This document shows positions 24,773 to 59,932 of a DNA stretch of 64,000 nt, in pieces. How positions within the stretch are numbered: position 1 is the stretch's first letter; each line of letters begins with the position of its first letter. The translations under genes and the position numbers were made by a program. This DNA is from a virus. The stretch lies in the IMG/VR virus record IMGVR_UViG_3300017917_003893, positions 79,337 through 143,336 of that record, one strand, 5' to 3'. The notes under the pieces were generated by a model. That model was not told the DNA's origin and ran no database searches. It was given only the letters and a program-made list of their open reading frames with translations.

Positions 24773-25417
24773 ATGAATAAAATTGAAATAGAAGGTAAAT
24801 TAAATAAATCTTGGGTTAATAGTCTATTAGCTGAGGGTTATACAACATATGATATTGTATCAAACTATGAAATAGATGAAGATGTTATTTTAGAGTGTTA
24901 TGAGTTTTTAGATAAAAATGTAATAATACAAGGTCTTAATTTATCAGAAGATTTTATAAACAAGTCTATTGAAATACAATATTTAGACTTAGAAGATATA
25001 AAGGAACTAAGTATGTCTACTTATGCTAATTTGTCTCCGGAATTTATATCTAAATATAAAGAGTATATCAACTGGAATAGAATGATTCTCTACATTTCAA
25101 CTCAGTCAAATTCATTTGATGAATATGTTGAGGTTATTAATGATAAAGACTTATGGCAAGTTATTAGTGCTAATGATTTACCATTAGAGTTTATAAGAGA
25201 ATATAAAGATAAATTAGATTGGTCTTATTTATCAATGGTTAAGTGTTTTACAGATGAGGAAAAAGAAGAGTTTGGTGATTATATTCTTACACCTGTACAA
25301 AAAGAAATAAGCGATGAGTCATTTATTAATCAAGATGATTTAAAATTCTCAGATAAGATGACTGATGAAGAGTTAGAAGATTTAATTAATGAAATCTCAA
25401 AACATATAGGAAAGTAA
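24773..25417 (+). CDS. Hypothetical protein with Trp-containing repeats (LSxEFIxxYKDxxxW)
   Basis: LSPEFISKYKEYINW and LPLEFIREYKDKLDW. Confidence 0.65.
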   Translation: MNKIEIEGKLNKSWVNSLLAEGYTTYDIVSNYEIDEDVILECYEFLDKNVIIQGLNLSEDFINKSIEIQYLDLEDIKELSMSTYANLSPEFISKYKEYINWNRMILYISTQSNSFDEYVEVINDKDLWQVISANDLPLEFIREYKDKLDWSYLSMVKCFTDEEKEEFGDYILTPVQKEISDESFINQDDLKFSDKMTDEELEDLINEISKHIGK

Positions 25418-25418
25418 A

Positions 25419-25577
25419 ATGTCAAATTATCAATTAAAAATTTTAGAAAAGTTAGATGATGAGGATTGGAATTATCCAAGCGTGGTAAAGGTTGTAATGA
25501 AACCTAAATCTGCTATAAACAATCCACCTTTGAAAAAAACGAAATTTTCGAGGTTGATATATACTGAACAAAAATAA
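25419..25577 (+). CDS. Possible small protein (52 aa)
   Basis: ATG 1 nt after upstream stop; MSNYQLKILEKLDDEDW... Confidence 0.35.
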   Translation: MSNYQLKILEKLDDEDWNYPSVVKVVMKPKSAINNPPLKKTKFSRLIYTEQK

Positions 25578-25613
25578 TTAAAAATATTTTTTACAAGATT
25601 TAAAACTTTTTCA

Positions 25614-25621
25614 TATCTTTG
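25614..25621 (+). promoter_or_regulatory. TAnnTTTG promoter driving the ncRNA/Ro60 locus
   Basis: TATCTTTG ~27 nt upstream of the first structured RNA. Confidence 0.65.
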
Positions 25622-25647
25622 TATAAAATAAAAACAAATAAAAAAAC

Positions 25648-25712
25648 CCAGTAGCGAATTGAAGTGTTACTTCGTATGGATTGAAAAAACACACTTTAAT
25701 GATTTACTCTGG
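25648..25712 (+). ncRNA. Y-RNA-like ncRNA 1 (minimal putative Ro60-binding module)
   Basis: ccag/ctgg stem; TAGCGA/GATTTACT internal loop; 10-bp attgaagtgt/acactttaat stem; TACTTCG; same architecture as the next element; upstream of Ro60. Confidence 0.75.
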
Positions 25713-25730
25713 TCAATATATAGGCTAAAC

Positions 25731-25996
25731 CGCAAGCATAGCGATAGTTTGAGATACTTCGATAAATATCAATTAAACTATGACAGCCAAAGTGCCGAGC
25801 TAACAGCAAAGCTACCTTTCAATCTCCAATTGGCTGATTGATAAAAAGGTGAAAAAGTTCGAAAAGTACCTCGTAAAGGGCTAAGGAATTCAGAAACTTC
25901 CTTTAAATAAAGAACTGAGTGAGATAGTCACTTCAACCATCGGCAAAGTTTCGGGAGAATTCTTTGTAACGCTTAGGCTAAATTTTCTTGCTTGCG
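25731..25996 (+). ncRNA. Y-RNA-like ncRNA 2 (same module plus ~210-nt structured domain)
   Basis: cgcaagca/tgcttgcg stem; TAGCGA/AATTTTCT loop; tagtttgag/cttaggcta stem; TACTTCG; many internal helices. Confidence 0.8.
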
Positions 25997-26008
25997 ATTA
26001 ACATATAT

Positions 26009-26048
26009 GACCAGATTAACTTTACTGTTAGTCTGGTCTTTTTTTTTT
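26009..26048 (+). terminator. Strong intrinsic terminator (possible attenuator) between the ncRNAs and Ro60
   Basis: gaccagattaac-tttact-gttagtctggtc followed by T10. Confidence 0.85.
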
Positions 26049-26058
26049 GAACAAACTC

Positions 26059-26129
26059 GGACAAGCTCGTGTATCTCGAAAGAGTGAACGGTTTCTAGAG
26101 CCAAGGTGGTATCCCACGAGCCTCTGTCC
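26059..26129 (+). ncRNA. Structured RNA element in the Ro60 leader
   Basis: ggaca/tgtcc and gctcgtg/cacgagc stems enclosing ctc-GAAA-gag and ggttt/gagcc hairpins; GC-rich in AT-rich background. Confidence 0.55.
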
Positions 26130-26164
26130 CTTAAATAGAAATTAATAAAAATTAAAACGATATT

Positions 26165-27616
26165 ATGTCAAAATTTAACACAACAATGCCAAAGGCAAAA
26201 ACTCTTACTGAAAACCTAGCAGGTGGTCAAGCTTACTCTCAATCAAATGAGTTAGCTTTAGTTTCTCTTCTTTTAACATCTTTTGTTAATGATCAGTTCT
26301 ATAGGAATGCTCAAACGACTCTTGATGAATTGAGAAGCCTTATCACTAAGGTTAAAGATAAAGAATTTGTTGCTAAGGCGGCTATATTTGCTCGTGACCG
26401 TTTTGGTATGAGAAGTATTACTCATGCTCTTGCTGGTGAATTAACTTCACAACTATCGGGTGCGGAGTGGGGTAAAAACTTCTACGACAAAGTAGTTGTT
26501 CGTGTTGATGATATGACTGAAATCATGTCATACTACTTGGCTTATAAGACATCTAAAGATAGTCCTAAGTTTCCAAACTCTTTGAAGAAGGGTTTTGCTA
26601 AGGCTTTTGATAAGTTTGATGGTTATCAACTTGCTAAGTACAAAGGTGATAACAAAGAAGTTAAACTTGTTGACCTTGTTAACATTGTTCACCCAGTTCC
26701 AACTGAAAGAAACAAATCTGCTCTTGAGTCACTTGTTAAAGGTGAACTAAAGAACACTCAAACTTGGGAAGCTAAACTTTCACAAGCAGGGCAAATGGCT
26801 GAATCTGAAGAAGATTTGGCTCAACTGAAGGCTGATGCTTGGCAAGAACTTATCTCTACAAGAAAGATTGGTTACTTTGCTCTTCTTAGAAACTTGAGAA
26901 ATATCATCACTCAATCACCATCTGCTGTTAAGTCAGCATGTGAGTTGTTAGTTGATGAGAGAATGATTAAGAATTCAAGAGTTCTTCCATTCCGTTTCTC
27001 AACTGCATATGAAGAAATCTCTAAGTTAGGTTCTTCTAAAGAAGTTCGTGATGTTCTTGTTGCTATTAACCAAGCATTGGATATCTCAGTATGTAACGTT
27101 CCTAAGTTTGACGGTGAAACACTTGTTGTTATGGACGTTTCTGGTTCAATGAGTGGTAAACCATCTGAGATTGCTTCTTTGTTTGGTGCTATTTTAGCTA
27201 AAGTTAATAACTGTGATGTTATGACTTTCTCTACTGATGCTCAATATAAGCAATACAATCCAATGGATTCAGTGTTGACTATTAGAGGTTCTTTTAGATA
27301 CTCTGGTGGTGGTACAAACTTTAAGTCTATCTTTCAGAAGGCTAACAAAAAGTATGACAGAGTAATTATCTTGTCAGATATGCAAGGTTGGATGGGGTAC
27401 ACTACACCATCTTCTGAGTTTGCTCAGTACAAAAAGAAATACAATGCTAATCCATTTGTATATTCTTGGGACCTTGCTGGATTGGGTACTTTACAGTTCC
27501 CAGAACAAAATGTCTTTGCTTTGGCTGGCTTCAGTGATAAAGTATTTGACATCATGAAAATGATGGAGTTAGACAAGAAGGCTCTTTACAATGAGATTAA
27601 AGCTATACAGCTTTAA
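26165..27616 (+). CDS. Ro60/Rsr-like TROVE + vWA RNA-binding protein
   Basis: NLAGGQAY, YQLAKY, TWE, ALLRNLRNI, SRVLPFRF; MIDAS DVSGSM; GGT; ILSDMQ. Confidence 0.93.
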   Translation: MSKFNTTMPKAKTLTENLAGGQAYSQSNELALVSLLLTSFVNDQFYRNAQTTLDELRSLITKVKDKEFVAKAAIFARDRFGMRSITHALAGELTSQLSGAEWGKNFYDKVVVRVDDMTEIMSYYLAYKTSKDSPKFPNSLKKGFAKAFDKFDGYQLAKYKGDNKEVKLVDLVNIVHPVPTERNKSALESLVKGELKNTQTWEAKLSQAGQMAESEEDLAQLKADAWQELISTRKIGYFALLRNLRNIITQSPSAVKSACELLVDERMIKNSRVLPFRFSTAYEEISKLGSSKEVRDVLVAINQALDISVCNVPKFDGETLVVMDVSGSMSGKPSEIASLFGAILAKVNNCDVMTFSTDAQYKQYNPMDSVLTIRGSFRYSGGGTNFKSIFQKANKKYDRVIILSDMQGWMGYTTPSSEFAQYKKKYNANPFVYSWDLAGLGTLQFPEQNVFALAGFSDKVFDIMKMMELDKKALYNEIKAIQL

Positions 27617-59847: not shown

Positions 59848-59919
59848 GGTCGGGTGACCGAGTGTTTTAGGTGAAGGCCTGCAAAGCCTTTTACGGTGGT
59901 TAGAATCCATCCCCGACCT
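59848..59919 (+). tRNA. tRNA-Cys (GCA)
   Basis: Acceptor ggtcggg/cccgacc; anticodon arm aaggc-ctGCAaa-gcctt; T arm ggtgg-ttagaat-ccatc; U discriminator; CCA not encoded. Confidence 0.9.
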
Positions 59920-59932
59920 CTAATTTTATTTA

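What the first reader, a model, noticed from the sequence alone, without database searches (positions are those of the whole stretch)
25648..26048. Possible Ro60 autoregulatory attenuator built from the Y-like RNA
Seen: tctggtca-a-tatat (25708-25721) can form 13 bp with one bulge against atatatgaccaga (26003-26015). This helix is mutually exclusive with RNA1's closing stem (ctgg 25709-25712) and with the 5' arm of the terminator (26009-26020). I see no separate promoter box between the terminator and the Ro60 ATG. Inference: when Ro60 clamps RNA1 the terminator forms and only ncRNAs are made; without Ro60 the antiterminator forms and transcription reads into Ro60. Alternatively the helix is a processing stem around RNA2.
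Basis: partly seen in the sequence, partly recalled or inferred. Interest (0 to 1): 0.8.

Follow-up and report, generated by a model that had tools for sequence, protein, structure and literature searches.

The report
RNA switch before phage Ro60 gene
A roughly 400-base folded RNA just upstream of a giant phage's Ro60 gene can pair in three mutually exclusive ways, one of which is a transcription stop signal, so it most likely decides whether only the RNA or also the Ro60 protein is made; I found no paper or RNA catalogue that describes this.

Summary
25708-25721 pairs with 26003-26015 (13 bp, one bulged A) and excludes both the base of hairpin RNA1 (25648-25654 with 25707-25712) and the 5' arm of the terminator (26009-26038 plus T10). 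In shuffles of this window the pairing is reached 7 times in 1000.

The comparative evidence is much stronger. I collected 75 distinct relatives of this RNA from huge-phage and freshwater contigs. Ro60 lies downstream wherever the contig allows (73), usually 20-49 nt after the T-run. The four strands change together in at least three lineages, and all three helices are kept each time. The AU-rich extension of the long helix also covaries.

Folding predicts the long helix once its 3' strand is made, and the terminator plus RNA1 base at full length. The helix is the lower closing stem of the large RNA2 domain and acts as the antiterminator.

The structural logic of an attenuator is therefore well supported. 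Nothing tests Ro60 as the sensor, or the sign of control. The computed barrier for switching to the terminator is low (2-6 kcal/mol), so "no Ro60 gives read-through" does not follow automatically. No Rfam family and no paper I searched describes this. It is a new variant of a known kind.

The parts
25600..25629 (+). Promoter-like site (TTAAAA, 18 nt, TAAAAT). The block TTAAAACTTTTT...TATAAAAG/T is conserved about 20 nt upstream of seg1. Its role as the start of the leader RNA is inferred.
25648..25654 (+). seg1, CCAG-U-AG: 5' strand of the RNA1 base helix, the anti-antiterminator partner of seg2
25648..25713 (+). RNA1: irregular hairpin whose upper helix covaries and whose apical loop carries the invariant UACUUCG
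25704..25721 (+). seg2 plus the 5' strand of helix 2 (UUACUCUGGUCA-A-UAUAU). This shared strand pairs either with seg1 or with seg3.
25728..25738 (+). 5' strand of the upper closing stem of RNA2 (AACCGCAAGCA). It is compatible with both states.
25739..25988 (+). Core of RNA2: a conserved structured domain that includes the second UAGCGA-N10-UACUUCG module
25989..25999 (+). 3' strand of the upper closing stem of RNA2 (UGCUUGCGAUU)
26003..26019 (+). 3' strand of helix 2 plus seg3 (AUAUAUGACCAGAUUAA). It pairs either with seg2 (antiterminator) or with seg4 (terminator).
26009..26048 (+). Intrinsic terminator: 12-pair hairpin 26009-26038 (seg3 with seg4) followed by T10 at 26039-26048
26059..26129 (+). 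Extra GC-rich junction hairpin with a GAAA tetraloop in the spacer. Most relatives lack it, so it is not needed for the switch.
26165..27616 (+). Ro60 gene (TROVE plus vWA, 483 aa), the gene under the switch

Best explanation
The region from about 25636 to 26048 is the leader of the Ro60 gene and encodes a conserved structured RNA of about 400 nt. This RNA contains a three-helix switch made of four strands. These are seg1 (CCAG-U-AG, 25648-25654), seg2 (CUCUGGUCA, 25707-25715), seg3 (UGACCAGA, 26008-26015) and seg4 (UCUGGUC, 26032-38, followed by U10). Seg2 can close hairpin RNA1 by pairing with seg1. Alternatively it pairs with seg3 and so extends the closing stem of the large RNA2 domain downwards. 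Seg3 can pair with seg2, or with seg4 to form an intrinsic terminator. The state 1:2 plus 3:4 ends transcription and yields only the non-coding RNA. The state 2:3 removes the terminator and lets RNA polymerase run into Ro60, which in most relatives starts 20-49 nt later and has no room for a promoter of its own. What is shown: the helices, their mutual exclusion, their co-evolution, the invariable Ro60 gene downstream, and the predicted order of folding. What is inferred: that the T-run hairpin terminates, that read-through is the source of Ro60 mRNA, and that a factor sets the balance. The prime candidate for that factor is Ro60 itself, because the RNA lies where Y RNAs lie. The sign of control is open. 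A factor or a tertiary fold that locks the long stem would favour read-through, as in an ON riboswitch or BglG/LicT-type antitermination. My energy calculations lean slightly towards the second.
For: Anatomy in the window. Shuffle test, 7 of 1000. Ro60 identity: TROVE E=7e-19 plus vWA; best solved relative is Thermus phage phiLo Ro60, 9L5Y, E=5e-22. Family: 19 loci found through Ro60, 105 stretches from a viral pattern scan of which about 40 are true members, and 77 metagenome loci, giving 75 distinct RNAs. Of these, 73 have Ro60 downstream and the other 2 are cut by the contig end; the spacer is 20-49 nt in 60 of 71. Concerted four-strand changes: L016/L023 has UCAG, CUCUGAUU, AAUCAGAG, CUCUGAUU; L045 and one metagenome relative have one A-U pair deleted from all four strands; L137/L185 have CUGG-U-AG, CU-CCAGUUUC, GAAACUGAGUA or GAAGCUGGGUA, and UACUCAGU or UAUCCAGU. 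Helix 2 covaries (AUAUAU; UAUAAUU/AAUUAUA; UUUUGAAA/UUUCAAAA), and each sequence pairs better with its own partner than with others', permutation p<1e-4. L159 lost outer 2:3 pairs but closed the A.A internal loop. Folding of 19 representatives: P(2:3)=0.95-1.00 before seg4 exists, and the terminator state is favoured by 1.7-9.9 kcal/mol at full length. In the window the swap happens between 3' ends 26035 and 26037. Family-wide pair counts. RNAalifold independently returns RNA1 base, upper stem and terminator, with 23 pairs showing double changes.
Against: There are no transcript data, so neither termination at 26039-48 nor read-through is shown. The A/T-rich spacer contains -10-like hexamers, and the phage may use unknown promoter types, so an internal or overlapping promoter is not excluded. 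The ON-to-OFF barrier is low, so without a locking factor the helix may hardly affect termination. The core strands are almost invariant, so covariation there rests on a few lineages. L166 lacks a convincing 2:3 helix. The resemblance of seg2 (UGGUC-N-A) to the Ro60-contacted GGUCCGA is absent in L137/L185, so the long stem is not demonstrably a Ro60 site. Energies ignore tertiary structure, proteins and polymerase.
Confidence: 0.6

Rival explanations
1. Constitutive tuning. There is no sensor. The competing helices only set a fixed, leaky termination efficiency, so that many copies of the non-coding RNA are made for each Ro60 mRNA, matching one mRNA translated many times. The 2:3 helix also serves as RNA2's closing stem.
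For: The layout is the same in all relatives, and Ro60 sits 20-49 nt after the T-run. The low ON-to-OFF barrier suggests mostly termination with some leak. A fixed ratio would already balance RNA and protein (inference).
Against: It does not explain why the RNA1 base must overlap seg2, nor why that overlap survives complete sequence replacement in L137/L185. A leaky terminator needs no anti-antiterminator.
Confidence: 0.2
2. Maturation or processing stem. The long interrupted duplex (2:3, helix 2 and the upper stem, about 25-30 bp) is the basal stem of a large Y-like RNA in its mature form. It may be a double-strand RNase site that releases RNA2 from RNA1 and from the terminator or the mRNA. 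It would form after transcription, for example when Ro60 binds, and would not influence termination.
For: Canonical Y RNAs have a long stem with a bulge that carries the Ro60 site (PMC4201824). Seg2 reads UGGUC-N-A, close to GGUCCGA, in most members. The stem encloses exactly the RNA2 domain.
Against: At full length the terminator state is more stable, so the stem would need a helper to form. The model does not explain why seg3 is shared with the terminator in every lineage when a terminator placed a few bases further on would do. The RNA ends are not at the stem, because RNA1 protrudes 5' of it.
Confidence: 0.12
3. By-product. Seg2 and seg3 are complementary only because RNA1 and the terminator each contain a CCAG/CUGG helix, for instance as two copies of one protein-binding helix. 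The 2:3 helix itself has no function.
For: The core strands are nearly invariant, and seg4 resembles seg2.
Against: The complementarity extends beyond the shared tetramer. Seg2's UC after GG is not used in 1:2. Helix 2 and the upper stem covary. L159 compensates for lost outer pairs with new inner ones. L137/L185 keep a helix of 11-12 bp made of entirely different letters.
Confidence: 0.03

Closest known systems
Transcriptional ON switches in which the 3' strand of a closing stem (P1) is also the 5' arm of an intrinsic terminator. Examples are the pbuE/ydhL adenine riboswitch and protein-locked antiterminators of the BglG/SacY/LicT (RAT) type (my own knowledge, not checked here).
   Same: A structured domain is closed by a stem whose 3' strand is shared with the terminator's 5' arm, directly upstream of the regulated gene. 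The outcome is decided by strand displacement during the last few nucleotides of hairpin synthesis.
   Different: The domain is far larger (about 300 nt) and its ligand is unknown. There is an additional upstream hairpin (RNA1) that competes for the 5' strand. No sequence or Rfam relation exists.
Classical 1:2 / 2:3 / 3:4 attenuators (trp-type leaders), and autoregulatory leaders of RNA-binding proteins that mimic the protein's own RNA target, such as ribosomal-protein leaders and PyrR (my own knowledge).
   Same: Four strands form three mutually exclusive helices, the last of which is a terminator. The leader looks like the protein's expected RNA partner.
   Different: There is no leader peptide and no evidence of ribosome coupling. 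Binding of Ro60 to the leader is untested.
Y RNAs with Ro60: Deinococcus Yrn1/Yrn2, Salmonella and Mycobacterium YrlA/YrlB, phage YrlA (Chen et al. 2014, PMC4201824), and Yrl1/Yrl2 of Thermus phage phiLo (PMC12135203).
   Same: The RNA is encoded directly upstream of Ro60 on the same strand. It has a stem-bulge-stem architecture. In M. smegmatis two RNAs upstream of rsr come from one precursor. Seg2 resembles the GGUCCGA motif in most members.
   Different: The size is about 400 nt against 80-130 nt. No tRNA-like T/D arms and no Rfam hit were found. The motif is not universal in the family. None of the papers read mentions any terminator/antiterminator coupling.

Membership tests
Intrinsic (factor-independent) terminator | Stem-loop with G-C pairs immediately followed by a run of U | tested here: met
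   12-pair stem with 5 G-C pairs at 26009-26038, then T10. The same arrangement occurs in the relatives, with hairpins of -15 to -22 kcal/mol.
Intrinsic (factor-independent) terminator | RNA 3' ends form at the U-run | not testable with these tools
   No transcript data are available.
Terminator/antiterminator transcription attenuator | Terminator lies in the leader of the regulated gene, on the same strand, with no intervening promoter | tested here: inconclusive
   The spacer is 20-49 nt in 60 of 71 relatives, and no sigma-70-like site lies in the window's gap. However, the spacer is A/T-rich and the phage's promoter types are unknown.
Terminator/antiterminator transcription attenuator | Alternative helix that uses the terminator's 5' arm, conserved and covarying | tested here: met
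Terminator/antiterminator transcription attenuator | Third helix that competes for the antiterminator's other strand (anti-antiterminator) | tested here: met
   The RNA1 base, seg1:seg2, is canonical in 25 of 25 sequences at all six pairs and changes in concert in L016, L045 and L137/L185.
Terminator/antiterminator transcription attenuator | Read-through responds to a signal | not testable with these tools
   This needs in vitro transcription, reporters or Term-seq.
Canonical Y RNA | Encoded next to Ro60 on the same strand | tested here: met
Canonical Y RNA | 80-130 nt, with the 5' and 3' ends forming the long stem (PMC4201824) | tested here: not met
   The unit is about 400 nt. The long stem is internal, with RNA1 on its 5' side and the terminator arm on its 3' side.
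Canonical Y RNA | Ro60-contact motif GGUCCGA or GNCGAAN0-1G on the 5' strand | tested here: inconclusive
   Seg2 reads UGGUC followed by A, G, U or C and then A in most members (GGUCGA in the L012 type, GGUCCA in L079). L137/L185 have CUCCAGUUUC instead.
Canonical Y RNA | Binds Ro60 | not testable with these tools
   This needs EMSA or co-purification.
YrlA-type tRNA-mimic Y RNA | Nearly invariant T-arm and D-arm (tRNA-like domain) | tested here: not met
   No Rfam family matches 25400-26300 even at E<=10, apart from two chance hits far below threshold. ARAGORN finds nothing there.

The most novel reading that the evidence does not exclude
The leader is a Ro60-sensing riboregulator. A Y-RNA-like module acts in cis as the sensor that couples the amount of free Ro60 to termination before the Ro60 gene, and so keeps the protein and its partner RNAs in balance. 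This would be the first autoregulatory circuit described for any Ro60, and the first Y-like RNA with a cis-regulatory role.
Probability: 0.3. Interest if true: 0.85.

Novelty: new variant of a known kind. Interest (0 to 1): 0.68.

Why it matters
Very little is known about how Ro60 and its partner RNAs are kept in proportion, in any organism. None of the papers I could search describes attenuation or autoregulation of a Ro60 gene.

This case offers a compact element that can be tested by mutation. It has four short strands with clear predictions for compensatory changes, and more than 70 natural variants already show which changes are tolerated.

It also defines a new large structured phage RNA, absent from Rfam, that always travels with Ro60 in a clade of huge freshwater phages. 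If Ro60 is the effector, the element would also reveal the Ro60 binding site for this RNA class.

Tried and rejected
- **Rfam.** Rfam at gathering thresholds on the whole window finds only tRNA-Cys at 59848-59919. At E<=10 on 25400-26300 it gives only two chance hits, SNORA72 and mir-2160. The RNA is therefore not YrlA, Y_RNA, ROOL, GOLLD or any other curated family.
- **tRNA-like parts.** ARAGORN finds none in the region.
- **Identity with the vertebrate Y helix.** I first read CUGGUC/GACCAG as the Ro60 site, because it resembles the vertebrate Y helix. I abandoned this as a defining feature once L137/L185 showed the same switch built from different letters.
- **Generality.** Vibrio phage pv27 and crAss001 have no terminator directly upstream of Ro60, so the design is family-specific.
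- **Extra hairpin 26059-26129.** It is single-copy in the contig and has no GenBank phage match, so it is not a repeat or a mobile element that I can detect.
- **Complementarity 25800-25814 with 26017-31.** It is not conserved in the relatives, so I treat it as chance.
- **Covariance model.** The alignment has 578 columns, above the 400-column limit, so I did not build one and used anchored counts in Python instead.
- **Terminator finder.** My automatic finder mis-picked an internal hairpin in L012, L013, L170 and L196. Those four "failures" are artefacts.
- **Review paper.** The review PMC10870794 is not held.

Full report
**What is there.** The window is part of a 143-kb fragment of a huge phage, which CheckV estimates at 25% complete. 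ORF 26165-27616 is a genuine Ro60. It matches the TROVE domain (E=7e-19) plus vWA domains, and its best solved relative is the Ro60 of Thermus phage phiLo (9L5Y, E=5e-22; Xenopus Ro60 1YVP, E=9e-5). Upstream lie a ribonucleotide reductase gene and two small ORFs, followed by about 590 nt without a credible gene.

**The observation.** It holds letter for letter. 25708-25721 pairs with 26003-26015: 8 bp, a bulged A25716, then 5 bp.
- The repeat finder returns the core (25704-25715 with 26008-26019, 92% complementary) and a further arm pair (25728-25738 with 25989-25999) that continues the same long-range stem.
- The terminator is a 12-pair hairpin at 26009-26038 followed by T10.
- The RNA1 base pairs CCAG-U-AG (25648-25654) with CU-CUGG (25707-25712).
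- Seg2 is therefore shared between RNA1 and the long helix, and seg3 between the long helix and the terminator.
- Within the window alone, the best partner of 26000-26020 in the whole upstream transcript is exactly this site (-15.4 kcal/mol). Only 7 of 1000 dinucleotide shuffles reach that value.

**Relatives.** The only GenBank phage with similar DNA is a 634-kb uncultured phage, LR745206. I found further relatives in three ways.
- A search with the Ro60 protein gave 19 IMG/VR loci.
- A DNA pattern from the conserved core gave 105 viral stretches, of which about 40 are true members and the rest are chance matches.
- A stricter pattern gave 77 metagenome loci.

Together these make 75 distinct RNA sequences of 368-470 nt. 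Ro60, at 63-100% identity to the window's protein, follows in 73 of them. The other two are cut by the contig end. In 60 of 71 cases the distance from the T-run to the start codon is 20-49 nt. The window's 116 nt is unusual. It is due to an extra hairpin (26059-26129) that most relatives lack.

**Co-evolution of the four strands.** The core strands are nearly invariant. This is expected if each base has to satisfy two helices. Where they do change, they change together.
- L016/L023 have UCAG, CUCUGAUU, AAUCAGAG and CUCUGAUU.
- L045 and one metagenome relative have lost one A-U pair from all four strands (GCCG, CUCGGUC, GACCGG/GACCGA, AUCGGUC).
- L137/L185 have replaced the letters altogether: AACUGG-U-AG, CU-CCAGUUUC, GAAACUGAGUA or GAAGCUGGGUA, and UACUCAGU or UAUCCAGU. 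All three alternative helices are kept, 11-12 bp for 2:3.
- The AU-rich continuation of the long helix differs between lineages but stays complementary: AUAUAU; UAUAAUU/AAUUAUA; UUUUGAAA/UUUCAAAA.
- Each sequence pairs better with its own partner strand than with those of other lineages (mean -4.7 against -2.9 kcal/mol; permutation p<1e-4).
- L159 looks like a recombinant that received a foreign RNA1. It lost the outer pairs of 2:3 but gained inner ones by closing the usual A.A internal loop.
- RNAalifold on 14 sequences independently returns the RNA1 base, the upper closing stem and the terminator. Of its 52 pairs, 23 show double changes.
- Only L166 lacks a convincing 2:3 helix.

**Predicted behaviour.** I folded 19 diverse representatives.
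- In transcripts cut just before seg4, the 2:3 helix has probability 0.95-1.00 and the RNA1 base about 0.
- In full-length transcripts, the state with RNA1 base plus terminator is favoured by 1.7-9.9 kcal/mol.
- In the window, 2:3 dominates for 3' ends at 26013-26035, and the terminator takes over from 26037, one base before the stem is complete.
- The same pattern holds across the 75 sequences.
- The direct-path barrier from the 2:3 state to the terminator state is an upper bound. It is only 2.2-6.0 kcal/mol in 13 relatives.

Branch migration, helped by seg1 recapturing seg2, should therefore be fast on naked RNA.

**Interpretation.** This is the anatomy of a terminator, antiterminator and anti-antiterminator switch in the leader of Ro60. 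The overlap of RNA1 with seg2 survives complete sequence replacement, which argues that the state of RNA1 is coupled to the state of the terminator. I therefore commit to a read-through switch (confidence 0.6).

The effector and the sign of control are inferred only.
- Ro60 is the obvious candidate because the RNA sits where Y RNAs sit (PMC4201824; PMC12135203).
- The low barrier means that absence of Ro60 would not by itself give read-through. A factor or a tertiary fold that locks the long stem would be needed, as in ON riboswitches or BglG/LicT-type antitermination (my own knowledge).
- Seg2 reads UGGUC-N-A in most members, close to the GGUCCGA that Xenopus Ro60 contacts. Because L137/L185 lack this, I do not count it as evidence for a Ro60 site.

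**Rivals.**
- A fixed leaky terminator without a sensor (0.2).
- A maturation or processing stem that forms only after transcription (0.12).
- A by-product of two CCAG/CUGG helices (0.03). This is contradicted by helix 2, by L159 and by L137/L185.

**Comparison with known systems.** The RNA is not a canonical Y RNA in size or in the placement of its ends, and it is not YrlA: no T/D arms and no Rfam hit. The leader terminator is not general to phage Ro60 genes, since pv27 and crAss001 lack it. Searches for Ro60 together with attenuator, antiterminator or autoregulation found nothing relevant. Earlier notes of this scan on the same stretch describe the two Y-like modules and the structured spacer. 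I found no earlier follow-up of the switch.

**Caveats.**
- There are no transcript data.
- The phage's promoter types are unknown, and the spacer is A/T-rich.
- The energy model ignores tertiary structure, proteins and polymerase.
- Covariation in the core rests on a handful of lineages.

Noticed in passing
window 25509-25565: A conserved non-coding block: an inverted repeat CCACCT...AGGTKG followed by GATATATAC. It is present in most related loci even where the upstream gene differs. In L001 and L009 it follows a terminator and directly precedes RNA1. It overlaps the end of ORF 25419-25577, which may be spurious. The motif AAAC-N14-17-KATAWAWA occurs 10 times in the window against 3.5 +/- 1.9 expected, so it may be a phage promoter type.
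   Followed up: partly
window 26059-26129: An extra GC-rich junction hairpin with a GAAA tetraloop lies between the terminator and the Ro60 ATG. It is single-copy in the contig, has no GenBank phage match, and a related element occurs in L016. About 8 of 71 relatives have such long spacers of 90-129 nt.
   Followed up: partly
window 25652-25676 and 25739-25763: RNA1 and RNA2 share one module, UAG(Y)GA, then 10 nt, then UACUUCG, at identical spacing. UACUUCG is invariant in both loops across the family.
   Followed up: partly
L159 and L188 (metagenome loci): L159 appears to be a recombinant, with an RNA1 of the L188 type joined to an RNA2 and terminator of the L067 type. In L188 about 520 nt with an extra ORF lie between the terminator and Ro60.
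   Followed up: partly
window 25637-25646 and 26039-26048: The A-run just before seg1 is complementary to the terminator's U-run (10 nt, 90%), and the two pair in the minimum-energy fold. This may be trivial in an A/T-rich genome.
   Followed up: no
L204 1152-1500 (Vibrio phage pv27): The closest cultured relatives of this Ro60 are Vibrio phages Va1, pv27 and phiTY18, at about 31% identity. pv27 has a gap of about 350 nt that is mostly non-coding, with a promoter-like site upstream of Ro60 but no terminator. This may be a different partner RNA.
   Followed up: no
window 59848-59920: A tRNA-Cys (GCA) gene.
   Followed up: no
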